A stretch of DNA of 24,256 bases. Source: an uncultured Gammaproteobacteria bacterium (lineage in GTDB: Bacteria > Patescibacteriota > Patescibacteriia > UBA1558 > UBA10009). Both the position numbers and the translations under genes were made by a program. The stretch spans positions 1 to 24,256 of the forward strand of contig CAZSGB010000001.1 of NCBI GenBank assembly GCA_964606355.1, given 5' to 3'. Position 1 is the stretch's first letter, and every line of letters starts with the position of its first letter. The notes beneath the pieces were generated by a model. It ran no database searches and was not told the DNA's origin. It was given only the letters and a program-made list of their open reading frames with translations. Of the stretch, positions 12,237 through 16,716 are shown one piece after another.

Positions 12237-15200
12237 ATGACATACAAGGATAAATTGAATAATGAGCAGAAAAAAGCGGTCCAATTTAAAGAGGGTCCGC
12301 TTTTAATTGTGGCTGGTGCCGGAACCGGTAAAACCACGGTTATTACTGAAAGAATTAATTATTTAATTACTGAAAAAAAAGTAAATCCTGAGGAAATATT
12401 AGCTTTAACCTTTACGGAAAAAGCAGCTCAAGAAATGGAAGAGCGAGTTGATAAAGCATTACCTATGGGTTACTTTGATTTATGGATTTCTACTTTCCAT
12501 TCCTTTGCTCAAAGAATTTTAGAGTCGCATGGCTTAGAAATAGGTTTAACCACTGATTTTAAGTTAGTTGATCAAACTGAGAGCTGGCTTTTAATACGTA
12601 ATAATTTAGATAAGTTTAATTTAGATTATTACCAACCACGTGGTAATCCCTCTAAATTTATACATGCTTTAATTAAACATTTTTCAAGATGTAAGGATGA
12701 ATTAATTACTCCAGAAGATTATTTAAAATATGCTGAGCAGTTTAGATTAGATAATGATCTTCGAAAAGACGAAGAAGCTGCTTTAGAAGTGAGACGCTTA
12801 GAAGAAGTAGCTAATGCATATCACACATATCAACAATTATTAATCGATAATGATTTATTAGATTTTGGTGATCTCATAAATTATTGTTTAGAGTTATTTA
12901 CTAAGAGACTAAATATTTTAAAAAAATATCAACAACAATTTAAATATATTTTAATTGATGAGTTTCAAGATACTAATTATGCGCAGTACCAATTAATTAA
13001 GTTACTTGGTAATGAGCATAATAACATTACGGTAGTTGGTGATGATGATCAATGCTTGCCTTCTGATTCAGAAGTGTTGACCGAAAAAGGAAAAAAGAAA
13101 ATAAAAAATATTAGAATTGGTGATGAGGTATTAACGGCAGTAGGTAAAGGGCATATTGGTATTTCTAAAGTTAATCATGTTCTTAAGAATAAGAAAAAAA
13201 CTAAACTGATTAGTGTAAAAACAAAAAAGGGTTACCAGGTTCAAATAACTGATAATCATAAGATGTTTTGTCATGTCTCATCTGCGAACGATAAAAATAA
13301 GTATTTTTATGTTTATTTAATGTGGAAGCAAAGTCTAGGTTGGAGAATAGGTATAACTAAAAATTTAGCATGGAGATTACCTTTAGAACGTTCGGCTGAT
13401 AAAATTTTAGGTATTAAAGCTTGTTTATCCGAGAAAGAAGCTAGATATCATGAACAATTATATTCTCTAAAATATTCTATTCCAACATATTGTTTTAAAG
13501 ATAGAGATGGTTTAATGCTTAAGGAAAATAAATTAAGTAGTTTATATAAGGAATTGGATGTTGAAAAAGGAGTAAAAAGATTAGCAAAAGATCTAAATAT
13601 TGACTTAAATAATGCACATATCTATCTAGCTGGTGTAACTAGAGGTAAAAGTAAAAGAATTAAAATTAATTTAAATATGTGTTATAGGTGTCATAGAAGT
13701 AAAGAGCATGTTAAGAAAAATAAAAAATTATTAGTAAATGGTCTAATTCAACATGAAGTAAATTTACAGACTTCAAATAAAGAAGTAATTAAAAAATTAG
13801 AAGATAATGGGTTTAAGCTTGCAAAAGCAAAAATAGGCAAACGATTACATATAGTTAGTAAAGATTTATTATATTTAGGAGGAGTAGTAAAAAAATTGGA
13901 AAATTTAACTAATGGAATAGTTGAGGTTAAGGCTAAAATAGGTAAGAAAAATTATCAGCATTTGCCAGCTGTAATTATACCTGCAAAAAATTTATTATTA
14001 GGTCATTTTTTGCCTGTTAAAGTTAAAAATCAAATAATATATGATGAAATAATTGATATCTCCGAACAAGACAAGATATTGACAGTCTATGATTTAGAAA
14101 TAGATAAAACTCATAATTTTATAGCTAATGGTATAGTAGTTCATAATTCAATATACAAATTTCGTGGAGCATCGGTTAGTAATATTTTAGAATTTAAAAA
14201 AGATTATCCAAAGAGTCAAGAAATATTTTTAAGTATTAATTATAGATCAAAACAAAATATATTAGATTTAGCATATAACTTCATTCAACTAAATAATCCA
14301 AATAGATTAGAAGTTAAATTAAAAGTAGCAAATAAAAAGTTATCTAAAAAATTGAAATCAGCGTTAGTTGGTGAAGGTATTATTGAGCATATACATGCTC
14401 CTAGTTTAGAAGAAGAAATGGCTGGAGTGATAAATAAAATACAAGAGATAACAAATAAAGAAAAAGGTATTAGTTATAATGATTTTGCTATACTAGTTAG
14501 AGCCAACAATCAAGCTAATTTGTTTGTTCAAGGTTTGGAACGTGCAAATATTCCATATCAATATGTAGCTTCTAAGGGTTTATTTGCTAAACCCATTGTT
14601 TTAAATTTAATTGCTTTTCTAAAGCTTTTAGATGATTATCATGAATCTGATGCAATGTATAGGGTTTTAACTATGCCCATGTGGAATTTAACTACCTTAG
14701 AAATTGTTCAACTTACCTATTTAGCTCGTAAAAAAGCTTGGTCTTTGTGGGAAGCAGTTAATCAATCAAAATATGAATTAAGATTACCTGATGGTACGCA
14801 AGCTCAGATAAATAGGGTAGTAGATATGATAAAGAATTATTCATCCTTAACTAAAGAAGAAAAAGTAAGTAAAATAGTTTTTGACTTTTTAAATGATTCT
14901 GGTTATTTAAAATTTGTTGATAGTGAAGACGAATTAGATAAAAGGCAGGACTTTTCTTATCTTGGGCAATTCTACAAAAAGATAAAAGTATTTGAAGAAT
15001 TTAATGATGACAAAAGTGTTAAGAATTTTTTAAAGCAACTGGGCTTAGAACTTGAATCTGGAGAACAGGGTAGTATGCAACCCTTAGGTGAAGATGAAGG
15101 TCCTGAAATGGTTAAAGTAATGACAGTTCACGCAGCTAAAGGTTTAGAGTTTAAATACGTATTTTTAGTTAATATGGTAGATCGGAGATTCCCTTCCATG

Positions 15201-16265
15201 GAAAGAAGTGAAGAGATAGAGTTACCTGATGAGTTGATTAAAGAAATCATTCCTGAAGGCGACATCCATCTTCAAGAAGAAAGAAGACTTTTTTACGTCG
15301 CTATGACTAGAGCTAAGCTTGGTCTCTTCTTAACTTCAGGTGAAGATTATGGCGGAATACGTAAAAAGAAGTTATCACTTTTTATGATAGATCTTGGTTT
15401 TAAACAAGTTGAACTTAAAAAGAATGATTTAAAAGTTTCTCAACTGGAAAAAGTAAAACCAATTAAAGTTAAAAAAACTAGTTATCATGATCTATTACCT
15501 AAACGATTTTCTTTTACCCAAATTAATGATTTTCAAAATTGTCCTCGTATGTACTATTATCGTTACATCTTAAAAGTACCTACTCAGGGTAATCAATATT
15601 TTAGTTTTGGTTCAACTATTCATTTGTCACTTCAAAGATTTTTTGAAGAGGCTAAAAAAAGACAAGGATTGAGTCAAGGTGACTTATTCTCTAAATCTAA
15701 AGAGGGACAACTTAGAAAAAAAGCTAGGGACCTAGTAAGTTTGGAGGAGTTACTAAGAATATATGAAGAGTCATGGCTAGATGATTGGTATCAGAATAAA
15801 AAACAGAAAGAAGAATATTTTAAAAATGGTAAGGAGATTTTAAAGAAGTTTCATAGTAGCCAACATTACTCAAAAATAATACCAGGCTATCTAGAAAAAG
15901 GTTTTACCATTAAAATAGGTGAGTACTCTTTAGGTGGTAAGATTGATCGAATAGATGATTTAGGTGATAGGTATAGGATCATTGATTACAAAACAGGTAA
16001 GCCTAAAATAAAGCTTGACGTGAATGATAAAGAACAACTCTTAATCTATCAAATGGCTTTAGAAAGCTGGCAGAATATGATAATTGAAGAATTAGTCTAT
16101 TATTATTTGGAAGATGATAGTTTAATGAGTTTTAAGGGCACAGATAATGAAAAGAAGAAATTAACAGATAAGATAATTAAAACAATTGAAGAAATAAAAG
16201 GTTTTGATTTTGAAAAATATATTAAGAACCATGAAAAGTGCATCTATTGTAAAGAAATACTATAA
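12237..16265 (+). CDS. UvrD/PcrA-type SF1 helicase fused to a C-terminal PD-(D/E)XK (RecB/AddAB/AdnAB-like) nuclease; intein-containing precursor (1342 aa, 977 aa after splicing)
   Basis: AGAGTGKT Walker A, LTFTEKAA, IDEFQD Walker B, GDDDQ/SIYKFRGA motif III split by the intein, NYRS, TVHAAKGLEF, EERRLFYVAMTRA. Nuclease: SFTQINDFQNCP, GKIDRID, IIDYKTGK, QLLIY. Confidence 0.93.
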   Translation: MTYKDKLNNEQKKAVQFKEGPLLIVAGAGTGKTTVITERINYLITEKKVNPEEILALTFTEKAAQEMEERVDKALPMGYFDLWISTFHSFAQRILESHGLEIGLTTDFKLVDQTESWLLIRNNLDKFNLDYYQPRGNPSKFIHALIKHFSRCKDELITPEDYLKYAEQFRLDNDLRKDEEAALEVRRLEEVANAYHTYQQLLIDNDLLDFGDLINYCLELFTKRLNILKKYQQQFKYILIDEFQDTNYAQYQLIKLLGNEHNNITVVGDDDQCLPSDSEVLTEKGKKKIKNIRIGDEVLTAVGKGHIGISKVNHVLKNKKKTKLISVKTKKGYQVQITDNHKMFCHVSSANDKNKYFYVYLMWKQSLGWRIGITKNLAWRLPLERSADKILGIKACLSEKEARYHEQLYSLKYSIPTYCFKDRDGLMLKENKLSSLYKELDVEKGVKRLAKDLNIDLNNAHIYLAGVTRGKSKRIKINLNMCYRCHRSKEHVKKNKKLLVNGLIQHEVNLQTSNKEVIKKLEDNGFKLAKAKIGKRLHIVSKDLLYLGGVVKKLENLTNGIVEVKAKIGKKNYQHLPAVIIPAKNLLLGHFLPVKVKNQIIYDEIIDISEQDKILTVYDLEIDKTHNFIANGIVVHNSIYKFRGASVSNILEFKKDYPKSQEIFLSINYRSKQNILDLAYNFIQLNNPNRLEVKLKVANKKLSKKLKSALVGEGIIEHIHAPSLEEEMAGVINKIQEITNKEKGISYNDFAILVRANNQANLFVQGLERANIPYQYVASKGLFAKPIVLNLIAFLKLLDDYHESDAMYRVLTMPMWNLTTLEIVQLTYLARKKAWSLWEAVNQSKYELRLPDGTQAQINRVVDMIKNYSSLTKEEKVSKIVFDFLNDSGYLKFVDSEDELDKRQDFSYLGQFYKKIKVFEEFNDDKSVKNFLKQLGLELESGEQGSMQPLGEDEGPEMVKVMTVHAAKGLEFKYVFLVNMVDRRFPSMERSEEIELPDELIKEIIPEGDIHLQEERRLFYVAMTRAKLGLFLTSGEDYGGIRKKKLSLFMIDLGFKQVELKKNDLKVSQLEKVKPIKVKKTSYHDLLPKRFSFTQINDFQNCPRMYYYRYILKVPTQGNQYFSFGSTIHLSLQRFFEEAKKRQGLSQGDLFSKSKEGQLRKKARDLVSLEELLRIYEESWLDDWYQNKKQKEEYFKNGKEILKKFHSSQHYSKIIPGYLEKGFTIKIGEYSLGGKIDRIDDLGDRYRIIDYKTGKPKIKLDVNDKEQLLIYQMALESWQNMIIEELVYYYLEDDSLMSFKGTDNEKKKLTDKIIKTIEEIKGFDFEKYIKNHEKCIYCKEIL
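13053..14147 (+). mobile_element. Intein (365 aa, residues 273-637) with putative GIY-YIG-like endonuclease cargo
   Basis: Starts CLPSDSEV (Cys1); block B ITDNHKMF; block F VYDLEI; ends HNFIANGIVVHN followed by Ser+1. Removal restores VGDDDQ-SIYKFRGA. Confidence 0.95.
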
Positions 16266-16294: not shown

Positions 16295-16338
16295 ATATAG
16301 GTATTTAAGTGGATAAACGATAATTTTTGTTATATATT

Positions 16339-16716
16339 ATGACTACTAAACAATTTGTTTTATTATTGGGTATTATTACCTTAATCTGTCTGGGAGCTTT
16401 TGTCATGGTACTTTTTTTTATTAACCCCGAAACTACCAGTATAATTGGTTTTTTACTCTTTTATCTCTCCTTATTTTTTGGGATAACCGGTATTATGTCT
16501 TTAATTGGTTTTTTAATGAGATCAGTCTTTACCCATAGATTTGAGGTTTTTGAACAAGCTCAAATATCTTTTCGTCAAGGCGTATTCTTCGGTATTATCT
16601 TAGCTGGTTCTATGTTTATGCAAGCTAATCGGTTACTTACTTGGCTTAATGCTTTACTTTTAGTTATGTTACTAACTATTATTGAATTTTTAATTATTTC
16701 GCTCAAAAAAACTTAA
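16339..16716 (+). CDS. Hypothetical four-TM membrane protein
   Basis: Four hydrophobic segments with an SFRQG motif. ATG at 16339 is preferred over the track TTG at 16327; sits 3 nt before pheS. Confidence 0.75.
   Translation: MTTKQFVLLLGIITLICLGAFVMVLFFINPETTSIIGFLLFYLSLFFGITGIMSLIGFLMRSVFTHRFEVFEQAQISFRQGVFFGIILAGSMFMQANRLLTWLNALLLVMLLTIIEFLIISLKKT

What the first reader, a model, noticed from the sequence alone, without database searches (positions are those of the whole stretch)
13053..14147. Intein in SF1 helicase motif III carrying a GIY-YIG-like endonuclease instead of LAGLIDADG
Seen: a canonical C1...HN/S+1 intein splits GDDDQ|SIYKFRGA. Right after the N-terminal splicing region (about 13300-13500) is YFYVYLMWKQSLGWRIGITKNLAWRL...EKEARYHEQ. 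That is YVY, 9 residues, RIG, then Arg and a helical Glu, the GIY-YIG layout. No intact LAGLIDADG motif is visible. Known: intein homing endonucleases are mostly LAGLIDADG, some HNH; GIY-YIG cargo is uncommon. Inference: a mobile intein subfamily targeting the conserved motif III of repair helicases, making DNA end processing dependent on splicing. The His often following the Arg is missing, so activity is uncertain. Related inteins may already be in databases.
Basis: partly seen in the sequence, partly recalled or inferred. Interest (0 to 1): 0.8.

Follow-up and report, generated by a model that had tools for sequence, protein, structure and literature searches.

The report
Helicase intein with GIY-YIG-like nuclease
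A self-splicing protein insert (intein) interrupts a conserved motor motif of a DNA-repair helicase in a tiny-genome bacterium, and where inteins normally carry a LAGLIDADG or HNH cutting enzyme its front half is a diverged GIY-YIG-type nuclease, a pairing I found in hundreds of public sequences but in no paper I could search.

Summary
Window 13053-14147 (+) encodes a 365-aa class-1 intein (Cys1 ... His-Asn | Ser+1) that splits motif III (GDDDQ|SIYKFRGA) of a 1342-aa UvrD/PcrA helicase fused to a PD-(D/E)XK nuclease. The closest relative searched has the uninterrupted site.

Insert residues 84-150 have the motif order and predicted beta-beta-alpha-beta-alpha order of a GIY-YIG domain. Profile-profile comparison with free-standing GIY-YIG proteins gives 93% probability (E 2.5e-7; reversed and shuffled controls at most 4%). 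It pairs Y88, G100, R108 and E134 with the catalytic Tyr, Gly, Arg and Glu. The second Tyr is Arg98 and the usual His is Glu112. In the wider family, 12 of 61 diverse members hit Pfam GIY-YIG directly. Foldseek against the PDB gave no significant match, so fold-level proof is missing and nuclease activity is untested.

The back half (about 204-288) weakly resembles one LAGLIDADG half-domain (34%, E 4e-4, above all shuffles). The insert may therefore be a natural chimera.

The element looks mobile. It is in 4 of 61 relatives, 58 of which have the helicase. It also occurs in other phyla and in Klebsiella phages, and as a splicing-dead free-standing gene that breaks a phage helicase gene.

This scan has already reported the same intein family on other genomes, with the same reading (117 notes from at least 93 genomes match the key words).

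The parts
12237..16265 (+). Host gene: 1342-aa precursor of a UvrD/PcrA-type SF1 helicase fused to a C-terminal PD-(D/E)XK (Cas4/AddB-like) nuclease. It is about 977 aa after splicing.
   Evidence: Pfam UvrD-helicase 3e-76, UvrD_C 7e-52, PDDEXK_1 1e-30. Intein-free orthologues of 980-1020 aa occur in 54 relatives.
12237..13052 (+). N-extein, ending in helicase motif III first half ...TVVGDDDQ
   Evidence: Translation. The same motif is uninterrupted in 20 intein-free alleles.
13053..14147 (+). Class-1 intein, 365 aa, Cys1 to His364-Asn365
   Evidence: AlphaFold2 model pLDDT 88. Foldseek matches inteins and Hint domains at E down to 1e-7, with TM 0.76-0.84 relative to mini-inteins.
13053..13286 (+). 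Hint N-terminal half (blocks A and B; Cys1, T66-x-x-H69)
   Evidence: TIGR01445 intein_Nterm on residues 1-72. C1, T66, N68 and H69 are invariant in 30 orthologues.
13302..13502 (+). GIY-YIG-like module, intein residues 84-150. Key residues: Y88 (13314-13316), R98 (13344-13346), G100, R108 (13374-13376), E112 (13386-13388), E134 (13452-13454), then the K-Y-x-I-P-T motif.
   Evidence: hhalign 93.4%, E 2.5e-7 against 27 free-standing GIY-YIG proteins, controls at most 4.3%. 12 of 61 family members hit PF01541. The sole PDB sequence hit is 1ZG2. Atlas neighbours are all from the GIY-YIG clan. Predicted strand/helix order is b-b-a-b-a. Y88, M90, R98, G100, R108, E112, E134 and P144 are invariant in 61 diverse members.
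13503..13661 (+). Linker: two helices (residues 158-167 and 170-181) and a low-confidence loop. Conserved L164, D169, T170, L177.
   Evidence: AlphaFold2 secondary structure and pLDDT. Conservation table. In a forced alignment it lines up with LAGLIDADG blocks D and E, without statistical support.
13662..13916 (+). Back subdomain, residues 204-288, b-b-a-b-b-a. It is possibly a LAGLIDADG-type half-domain kept as the DNA-binding part. Conserved R202, H231, T237, S238, G250, R261.
   Evidence: hhalign against 49 LAGLIDADG_3 domains gives 34%, E 4e-4, score 24.6, against at most 14.1 in 60 shuffles. About two thirds of the atlas neighbours are LAGLIDADG_3 clusters, at a low score of 0.6. Weak Foldseek hits to meganucleases and to the MotA DNA-binding domain.
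13917..14147 (+). Hint C-terminal half (blocks F and G; ...VYDLEIDKTHNF...GIVVHN)
   Evidence: TIGR01443 intein_Cterm and PF14890. Y346, D347, L348, E349, T353, H354, N355, F356, H364 and N365 are invariant.
14148..16265 (+). C-extein, starting with Ser+1 (TCA) of SIYKFRGA. It holds the rest of the helicase and the PD-(D/E)XK nuclease.
   Evidence: It is 83% identical to the intein-free orthologue of G004.

Best explanation
This is a mobile class-1 intein whose homing endonuclease is built on a diverged GIY-YIG-superfamily catalytic module rather than a LAGLIDADG pair or an HNH domain.

Shown:
- The intein sits precisely between Gln and Ser of motif III of a UvrD/PcrA helicase-nuclease.
- It has every canonical splicing residue.
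- Its insert belongs to a large conserved family that is found only at this site of UvrD-type helicases.
- The front module is a remote relative of GIY-YIG nucleases.

Inferred steps:
1. The precursor is translated and the Hint domain splices itself out. The route would be an N-S shift at Cys1, transesterification to Ser+1, cyclisation of Asn365, then an O-N shift. This restores GDDDQSIYKFRGA and an active helicase.
2. The intein protein binds the intein-free motif III DNA (about GGN GAY GAY GAY CAR TCN ATH TAY) through its back subdomain, possibly with help from the Hint domain.
3. The GIY-YIG-like module cuts nearby, using Y88, R98, R108, E112 and metal-binding E134.
4. Recombinational repair from the intein-bearing allele copies the intein into the cut site.

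The substitutions Tyr to Arg98 and His to Glu112 suggest altered chemistry, as in the T5orf172 branch of the superfamily.
For: Splicing apparatus
- Canonical splice junctions and blocks are present, and they are invariant in 30 orthologues.
- The model has a Hint fold.

GIY-YIG relationship
- The wide-family profile of residues 84-158 against 27 free-standing GIY-YIG proteins from relatives gives hhalign probability 93.4%, E 2.5e-7, over 52 columns. It aligns Y88, R98 (at the YIG Tyr), G100, T102, R108 and E134 with the GIY-YIG positions.
- The reversed target and 20 column-shuffled targets give at most 4.3%.
- 12 of 61 diverse family members hit PF01541 (best E 3.8e-4). No other nuclease family is hit.
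- The only PDB sequence hit of the profile is the GIY-YIG protein 1ZG2, in the same register, E 0.24.
- 2 of 30 close orthologues hit T5orf172.
- The named language-model neighbours are T5orf172, SegE_GIY-YIG and GIY-YIG clusters.
- The predicted secondary structure is b-b-a-b-a.
- BFVD Foldseek lists T5orf172 and GIY-YIG proteins at probability up to 0.92, though with non-significant E-values.

Selection on the insert
- Y88, R98, G100, R108, E112 and E134 are invariant in 61 members that share only 31-60% identity.
- The insert is as conserved as the splicing domain.
- The intein tree is shorter than the extein tree (9.9 against 14.2 substitutions per site). Intein identity exceeds extein identity by more than 10 points in 143 of 378 pairs, and never the reverse.

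Mobility
- The helicase is in 58 of 61 relatives and the insert in 4 of 61.
- The site is empty in G004, whose C-extein is 83% identical.
- The same site is used after GDxxQ in all hosts examined.
- The element occurs in Omnitrophota and other phyla, in huge-phage contigs and in Klebsiella phages KP2025 and KP13-16.
- The placement of P0029 is incongruent between intein and extein trees (AU p 0.002 and 0.03; the groups were chosen after seeing the trees).
- A splicing-dead free-standing copy (P0138) keeps all the nuclease-motif residues. It sits between the two halves of a phage UvrD gene, just upstream of motif III.

Literature
- T5orf172 is a GIY-YIG subfamily with Glu-dependent nuclease activity (PMC10448857).
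Against: - Foldseek of the insert model against the PDB found no significant hit and no GIY-YIG structure in the top 50.
- The window's own sequence does not reach any Pfam or NCBIfam GIY-YIG threshold.
- The second motif Tyr, a defining catalytic residue, is Arg in 97% of the family. The usual His and the motif-E Asn have no counterpart.
- Much of the hhalign score comes from the first motif block (block-shuffle result).
- I could not inspect model coordinates, so clustering of the proposed catalytic residues is untested.
- Intein and extein trees are largely congruent (AU p 0.75 and 0.40 for two major clades). Much of the inheritance is therefore vertical, and the patchiness could partly reflect loss.
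- No cleavage or splicing experiment exists.
Confidence: 0.6

Rival explanations
1. Domesticated or inactive module. The front domain derives from GIY-YIG but no longer cuts DNA. The insert would be kept for DNA binding, for folding or control of splicing (for example, coupling helicase maturation to DNA or stress), or for another host-beneficial role, and the intein would be inherited mainly vertically.
For: - The canonical second Tyr, the His and the Asn are all absent.
- Intein and extein trees are largely congruent, and the intein evolves more slowly than its host protein. That is unusual for a purely selfish element.
- T5orf172 was first named as a DNA-binding domain.
Against: - The Glu that binds the metal in GIY-YIG enzymes is conserved in 100% of the family, and Y88, R98, R108 and E112 are invariant. 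That pattern fits catalysis better than binding alone.
- The distribution is patchy, with empty sites in close relatives.
- The element is present in phages and in several phyla.
- A free-standing, splicing-dead copy keeps the motif while breaking a helicase gene, which is how an active homing endonuclease gene behaves.
Confidence: 0.2
2. The whole insert is a highly degenerate two-lobed LAGLIDADG endonuclease that has lost its first motif helix. On this reading the GIY-YIG likeness of the front lobe is convergent.
For: - The back lobe aligns with LAGLIDADG_3 (34%, E 4e-4, above all shuffles).
- In a forced alignment the K-Y-G-I-P-T and L-Y-x-x-I-D-T stretches line up with LAGLIDADG blocks D and E.
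- Meganucleases appear among the weak Foldseek hits.
- The atlas neighbours of the back part are mostly LAGLIDADG_3 clusters.
Against: - The front lobe scores 0.5-2.3% against LAGLIDADG profiles and 93% against GIY-YIG.
- Pfam LAGLIDADG families hit none of the insert sequences scanned: the window's own insert, its 30 close orthologues and 61 front modules of the wider family. A six-frame genome search with PF14528 finds other inteins of this genome but not this one.
- No helix precedes the first hairpin.
- The acidic positions that would be catalytic are not conserved.
- The whole-intein model superposes on LAGLIDADG inteins no better than on mini-inteins (TMq 0.24-0.30 against 0.28-0.34).
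Confidence: 0.12
3. The insert is a new fold unrelated to any known nuclease, and all similarities are chance.
For: There are no significant PDB Foldseek hits. The window's own sequence has no family hit.
Against: Several independent kinds of evidence converge on the GIY-YIG clan: profile-profile comparison, direct Pfam hits in relatives, the sole PDB sequence hit, and the language-model neighbours. Clean negative controls support the profile result.
Confidence: 0.05

Closest known systems
Bifunctional class-1 inteins with an in-frame LAGLIDADG homing endonuclease (PI-SceI/VMA1, PI-PfuI, PI-TkoII, Pho/Tli VMA inteins)
   Same: - A Hint splicing domain is split by an inserted endonuclease region between blocks B and F.
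- The splice residues are canonical.
- The insertion lies in a highly conserved motif of a DNA-metabolism protein.
- Occurrence is patchy, with empty alleles.
- Foldseek matches these structures through the Hint domain.
   Different: - The insert has no LAGLIDADG motif pair and no Pfam LAGLIDADG hit.
- The front module is GIY-YIG-like.
- At most one lobe (the back one) is weakly LAGLIDADG-like.
GIY-YIG nucleases: the free-standing YhbQ/UPF0213-type proteins (PDB 1ZG2), I-TevI and the Seg homing endonucleases, and the T5orf172 subfamily (PF10544)
   Same: - The motif order is the same: Tyr strand, x-I-G strand, Thr, Arg helix, then a Glu helix (E-A-x-x-x-E). The spacing also matches.
- The predicted order is b-b-a-b-a.
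- As in I-TevI, a catalytic module is followed by a linker and a separate DNA-binding part.
- T5orf172 proteins are phage homing endonucleases (PMC10448857).
   Different: - The module is embedded in frame inside an intein rather than being free-standing or intron-encoded.
- The second Tyr is Arg and the usual His is Glu.
- There is no NUMOD, zinc-finger or helix-turn-helix DNA-binding module.
- Scores are below the family thresholds for the window's own sequence.
'Fractured genes': split inteins with a free-standing GIY-YIG or Vsr-like endonuclease gene between the halves (Dassa et al. 2009, PMC2677866)
   Same: - A GIY-YIG-type nuclease is associated with an intein or intein site in a DNA-metabolism gene.
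- A relative of this element (P0138 in locus L076) is itself a separate gene lying between two halves of a phage UvrD helicase gene.
   Different: - Here the nuclease is in frame within a contiguous, splicing-competent intein.
[quoted passage not shown]
- The free-standing relative carries dead Hint remnants rather than split-intein halves.
Known UvrD helicase inteins (16 listed by Novikova et al. 2016, PMC4760082)
   Same: The host family is the same (COG0210 UvrD).
   Different: That survey gives neither the insertion site nor the endonuclease type for them in the text I could read. I could not tell whether they are the same allele.

Membership tests
Class-1 intein | Cys/Ser at position 1 and Ser/Thr/Cys at +1 | tested here: met
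   Cys1 (13053-13055) and Ser+1 (14148-14150). Cys1 is invariant in 30 orthologues.
Class-1 intein | Block B T-x-x-H, block F, and block G ending His-Asn | tested here: met
   T66-D-N-H69, VYDLEIDKTHNF and GIVVHN are all invariant or nearly so. TIGR01445 and TIGR01443 score above their cut-offs.
Class-1 intein | Hint fold | tested here: met
   AlphaFold2 pLDDT 88. Foldseek hits inteins at E down to 1e-7, with TM 0.76-0.84 relative to mini-inteins.
Class-1 intein | In-frame insertion in a conserved host motif, with intein-free alleles that restore the motif | tested here: met
   GDDDQ|SIYKFRGA. Twenty empty alleles read TVVGDDDQS[IV]Y[KA]FRG[AS].
Class-1 intein | Protein splicing demonstrated | not testable with these tools
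   This needs expression of the precursor and detection of ligated exteins.
GIY-YIG nuclease superfamily (Pfam clan of PF01541, PF10544, PF13455) | First motif: Tyr of 'GIY' in strand 1 | tested here: met
   Y88 is invariant in 61 diverse members and aligns with the GIY Tyr.
GIY-YIG nuclease superfamily (Pfam clan of PF01541, PF10544, PF13455) | Second motif: Tyr-Ile-Gly in strand 2 | tested here: not met
   I99 and G100 are present, but the Tyr is Arg98 in 114 of 118 family members.
GIY-YIG nuclease superfamily (Pfam clan of PF01541, PF10544, PF13455) | Conserved Arg in helix 1 | tested here: met
   R108 is invariant in alignment A3 and aligns with the GIY-YIG Arg.
GIY-YIG nuclease superfamily (Pfam clan of PF01541, PF10544, PF13455) | Metal-binding Glu in helix 2 | tested here: met
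   E134 is present in 118 of 118 members and aligns with the catalytic Glu.
GIY-YIG nuclease superfamily (Pfam clan of PF01541, PF10544, PF13455) | His/Tyr after the Arg, and the motif-E Asn | tested here: not met
   The His position holds E112. No conserved Asn follows E134. These residues are not universal in the superfamily (PMC1564403).
GIY-YIG nuclease superfamily (Pfam clan of PF01541, PF10544, PF13455) | Score above the family model's threshold | tested here: inconclusive
   The window's own sequence has no hit. Of the relatives, 12 of 61 hit PF01541 (best E 3.8e-4) and 2 of 30 hit PF10544 (E 0.011). Profile-profile probability is 93%.
GIY-YIG nuclease superfamily (Pfam clan of PF01541, PF10544, PF13455) | Three-stranded sheet flanked by helices, superposable on solved GIY-YIG domains | tested here: inconclusive
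   The predicted strand/helix order fits. Foldseek against the PDB gives nothing significant. BFVD gives GIY-YIG and T5orf172 proteins only at E 0.1-0.3.
GIY-YIG nuclease superfamily (Pfam clan of PF01541, PF10544, PF13455) | Metal-dependent DNA cleavage | not testable with these tools
   This needs a biochemical assay.
LAGLIDADG homing endonuclease | Two LAGLIDADG helices, each ending in a catalytic acidic residue | tested here: not met
   No such motif is present. There is no PF14528, PF05204 or PF00961 hit. The candidate acidic positions 169 and 171 are variable.
LAGLIDADG homing endonuclease | alpha-beta-beta-alpha-beta-beta-alpha half-domain | tested here: inconclusive
   The back lobe (204-288) aligns with LAGLIDADG_3 at 34%, E 4e-4, above 60 shuffles. 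The front lobe scores at most 2.3%.
HNH homing endonuclease | HNH / beta-beta-alpha-metal motif | tested here: not met
   No Pfam, NCBIfam or PHROG hit to HNH families.

The most novel reading that the evidence does not exclude
The insert is a natural chimeric homing endonuclease. A GIY-YIG-type catalytic module has replaced the first lobe of an ancestral LAGLIDADG intein endonuclease, and the surviving LAGLIDADG lobe now serves only to recognise the helicase motif III DNA. This would be a natural counterpart of engineered I-TevI-meganuclease fusions, and the first in-frame GIY-YIG-class nuclease in an intein. The family can also shed its splicing function and persist as a free-standing gene that breaks the helicase gene in two.
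Probability: 0.3. Interest if true: 0.75.

Novelty: new variant of a known kind. Interest (0 to 1): 0.6.

Why it matters
Intein homing endonucleases are described as LAGLIDADG or, rarely, HNH. Two papers I read state that GIY-YIG domains are not known inside inteins (PMC1564403, PMC2677866). A later preprint lists GIY-YIG only through split-intein loci with a separate nuclease gene.

A large, conserved, unannotated family of contiguous inteins with a GIY-YIG-derived module has at least 571 cluster representatives across Patescibacteria, Omnitrophota and phages. It would add a further independent capture of a nuclease by inteins. It offers a test case for how inteins gain, swap and lose nucleases, because contiguous, possibly chimeric and free-standing forms all exist at one target site. 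It could also supply a compact nuclease that targets a nearly invariant helicase motif.

Practically, these inserts are currently annotated only as helicase or hypothetical protein, so a family model would improve annotation.

Tried and rejected
- **Direct family scans.** Pfam, NCBIfam and PHROGs scans and a PDB sequence search of the window's own insert gave nothing usable.
- **Foldseek, insert model against the PDB.** No significant hit. The top rows were CASTOR1, ACT-like and BMC-shell proteins with TM about 0.2, which I treat as noise.
- **Foldseek, whole intein against the PDB.** Only the Hint domain matched. It therefore could not settle the insert, beyond showing no better fit to LAGLIDADG inteins than to mini-inteins.
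- **Zinc finger at C-Y-R-C-H (residues 210-214).** Rejected. Only C210 is conserved among close orthologues, and in the wider family the position is Cys or Phe about equally.
- **Clear horizontal-transfer signal from trees.** Mostly not found. Two major extein/intein clades are not rejected by the other data set (AU p 0.75 and 0.40). Only the placement of P0029 is incongruent.
- **Base composition as a sign of foreign origin.** The difference is slight (26.5% against 29-30% GC) and not informative.
- **Block-shuffle control for the GIY-YIG comparison.** Uninformative, because 8-column blocks keep the motif intact. It shows that much of the score lies in the first motif block.
- **Model coordinates.** Not available to scripts, so I could not measure distances between the proposed catalytic residues.
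Full report
**1. The observation**

The ORF at 12237-16265 (+) encodes 1342 aa. It reads ...TVVGDDDQ, then CLPSDS...GIVVHN, then SIYKFRGA.... The 365 aa from 13053 to 14147 have every hallmark of a class-1 intein: Cys1, block B T66-x-x-H69, block F VYDLEIDKTHNF, terminal His-Asn and Ser+1.

- Pfam and NCBIfam recognise UvrD-helicase, UvrD_C and a C-terminal PD-(D/E)XK nuclease in the exteins. In the insert they recognise only Hint and intein splicing blocks.
It has Y86-V-Y88, nine residues, then R98-I-G100, R108 and E134, exactly as described.
- No LAGLIDADG or HNH family hits residues 84-292.
- The neighbours are housekeeping genes: an ATP synthase subunit, a Na/H exchanger, pheS, pheT and gyrB. 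The host gene is therefore chromosomal core, not a prophage.

**2. A large family at one site**

A word-indexed search found 30 helicase-nuclease orthologues from Patescibacteria with the same insert at 47-66% identity (alignments A1 and A2). A profile of the insert searched against 1.84 billion representatives found 571 proteins at E up to 0.001, and 276 at E up to 1e-10.

- Every host I examined is a UvrD-type helicase, some with additional LAGLIDADG inteins elsewhere in the protein.
- The residues before the intein Cys are GDxxQ in almost all of them.
- Named genomes with the close subfamily include many Patescibacteria lineages, but also Omnitrophota, Aerophobetes, Saganbacteria and Margulisiibacteriota MAGs.
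- Two huge-phage contigs carry relatives at 30% identity.
- Klebsiella phages KP2025 and KP13-16 have the same kind of intein after GDEFQ in a gene annotated 'putative DNA helicase' or 'hypothetical protein'.
- The three significant Foldseek hits in BFVD are also long phage proteins, two of which the table names as a DNA helicase and an adenine methyltransferase.

**3. What the front of the insert is**

AlphaFold2 on A1 gave a confident model (pLDDT 88). In the insert it predicts strand 85-92, strand 96-102, helix 105-111, strand 115-124 and helix 127-141, which is the order found in GIY-YIG domains.

Conservation points to the same residues. In 118 diverse representatives the most conserved insert positions are Y88, M90, G96, R98, G100, A115-D116, A130, E134 (100%), Y141, P144 (100%) and F148. 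In a re-aligned set of 61 members sharing 31-60% identity, Y88, M90, R98, G100, R108, E112, E134 and P144 are invariant.

For a profile-profile test I collected 27 free-standing GIY-YIG (YhbQ-like) proteins from relatives' genomes and ran hhalign.

- Probability is 93.4% and E is 2.5e-7 over 52 columns.
- Y88 aligns with the GIY Tyr, R98 with the YIG Tyr, and G100, T102, R108 and E134 with their GIY-YIG counterparts. E112 sits at the usual His.
- The reversed target and 20 column-shuffled targets gave at most 4.3%.
- A block-shuffle shows that much of the score sits in the first motif block.

Independent lines agree with this result:

- 12 of 61 diverse members hit Pfam PF01541 directly (best E 3.8e-4), one hits MUG113, and no other nuclease family appears.
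- 2 of 30 close orthologues hit T5orf172.
- The only PDB sequence hit of the profile is the GIY-YIG protein 1ZG2, in the same register, at a non-significant E of 0.24.
- The named neighbours in the protein-language-model atlas are T5orf172, SegE_GIY-YIG and GIY-YIG clusters, at a lead-level score of 0.83.

Evidence against this reading:

- Foldseek of the insert-only model against the PDB found nothing significant, and no GIY-YIG structure in the top 50.
- BFVD lists T5orf172 and GIY-YIG proteins only at E 0.1-0.3.
- I could not read model coordinates, so clustering of the proposed catalytic residues is untested.

**4. What the back of the insert is**

Residues 204-288 are predicted as strand-strand-helix-strand-strand-helix, preceded by two helices.

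- Against a profile of 49 LAGLIDADG_3 domains from Patescibacteria inteins, this part gives 34%, E 4e-4 and score 24.6. It aligns over the strand2-helix-strand3/4-helix part.
- Sixty shuffled controls reached at most score 14.1.
- The front part gives at most 2.3% against the same profile.
- A forced alignment also places K-Y-G-I-P-T and L-Y-x-x-I-D-T opposite LAGLIDADG blocks D and E, but without statistical support.
- About two thirds of the atlas neighbours of this part are LAGLIDADG_3 clusters, at a low score of 0.6.
- The whole-intein model fits LAGLIDADG inteins no better than mini-inteins.

I read this as a possible surviving LAGLIDADG lobe used for DNA recognition, at about 35-40% confidence.

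**5. Is it mobile?**

- The helicase-nuclease is found in 58 of 61 related genomes, and the insert in only 4.
- The closest relative searched (G004, C-extein 83% identical) has an uninterrupted TVVGDDDQSVYKFRGA in a 980-aa frame.
- Twenty further empty alleles have nearly the same protein and DNA sequence at the site.
- Intein identity is equal to or higher than extein identity. It is more than 10 points higher in 143 of 378 pairs, and never the reverse. The intein tree is also shorter (9.9 against 14.2).
- The trees are mostly congruent (AU p 0.75 and 0.40). One intein, P0029, is placed incongruently, and both data sets reject the other's placement (p 0.002 and 0.03). Those groups were chosen after seeing the trees.
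- A 380-aa relative (P0138) lacks Cys1 and the terminal His-Asn but keeps all the nuclease-motif residues. It has its own ribosome-binding site and sits after a terminator-like hairpin, between the N-terminal and C-terminal halves of a phage UvrD gene. The break lies a few codons upstream of motif III.

That last arrangement is how an autonomous homing endonuclease gene behaves. It argues that the selected activity resides in the insert rather than in splicing.

**6. Mechanism proposed**

Steps 2-4 are inferred. No experiment exists.

1. The intein splices by the standard class-1 route and restores motif III.
2. The intein protein recognises the intein-free motif III DNA, mainly through the back lobe.
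3. The GIY-YIG-like module cuts, using Y88, R98, R108, E112 and E134.
4. Recombinational repair copies the intein into the cut allele.

**7. Comparison with what is known**

- A 2025 preprint lists LAGLIDADG, HNH, Vsr-like, endonuclease VII-like and, through split-intein loci, GIY-YIG as intein-associated nucleases.
- UvrD is a known intein host (PMC4760082).
- T5orf172 is regarded as a GIY-YIG subfamily of phage homing endonucleases with Glu-dependent activity (PMC10448857).
- My searches of the held library found no description of an in-frame GIY-YIG-type intein nuclease. Subscription journals are largely absent from that library.
- Membership in the GIY-YIG superfamily is probable by homology, but one defining residue (the second Tyr) is not met and fold-level proof is lacking. 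I therefore call it GIY-YIG-like rather than a member.

**8. Earlier work in this scan**

A word search of the scan's index returned 117 notes from at least 93 genomes that hold the key words for this intein family. The follow-up reports shown reached the same reading.

- the LAGLIDADG-like back lobe;
- the free-standing copy in a fractured helicase gene;
- the comparison of intein and extein trees;
- the Ser+1 codon bias.

**9. Verdict**

The element is a new variant of a known kind of element. It is already abundant but unannotated in public data, and it awaits a cleavage assay.

Noticed in passing
window 14148-14150 and loci L081-L182: Codon bias at Ser+1. Of 20 intein-free alleles in relatives, 15 use TCN and 5 use AGT. 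Of 79 intein-bearing alleles, 71 use TCN, 8 use TGT (Cys+1) and none uses AGY. AGY alleles may be poor targets for the endonuclease, or TCN may be co-converted with the intein. Related genomes are not independent samples.
   Followed up: partly
L076:1290-5220: In a phage-like contig, a UvrD-type helicase gene is broken into two ORFs (438 aa and 433 aa). Between them lies a free-standing 380-aa relative of this intein (P0138). It has lost Cys1 and the terminal His-Asn but keeps the GIY-YIG-like residues. The break lies a few codons upstream of motif III, which is intact in the second half.
   Followed up: partly
L044:1993-4872 (Klebsiella phage KP2025, PP919962.1) and L045:994-4590 (phage KP13-16, OP617741.1): Two cultured Klebsiella phages carry the same intein type in their UvrD-like helicase (GDEFQ|C...SHN|CIYQFRG). 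The genes are annotated only as 'putative DNA helicase' or 'hypothetical protein'. KP13-16 also has a LAGLIDADG intein in the same gene.
   Followed up: partly
G000 contigs C66:1568-1819, C17:6650-6835, C71:235-432 (loci L031, L043, L040): The window's genome (797 kb, 131 contigs) has at least three other LAGLIDADG_3 matches. Two lie in long open frames of 994 and 1207 aa and are probably further inteins in other genes.
   Followed up: no
P0063, P0076, P0100, P0153, P0166: Some UvrD helicases of the wider family carry two or three inteins in one gene: a LAGLIDADG intein near the P-loop plus the motif III intein with the GIY-YIG-like insert.
   Followed up: no
window 16327-16716 (+): A 129-aa ORF with a TTG start lies directly downstream of the helicase-nuclease and has no Pfam hit at E up to 1e-5. 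I did not test that here.
   Followed up: no
loci L083, L093, L097 and others: Several MAG records labelled 'uncultured Gammaproteobacteria' carry Patescibacteria-type helicase-nuclease genes with this intein. One of them (L083) is the same contig as G020, which the genome search places in the window's own order. The organism labels of those records look unreliable.
   Followed up: no
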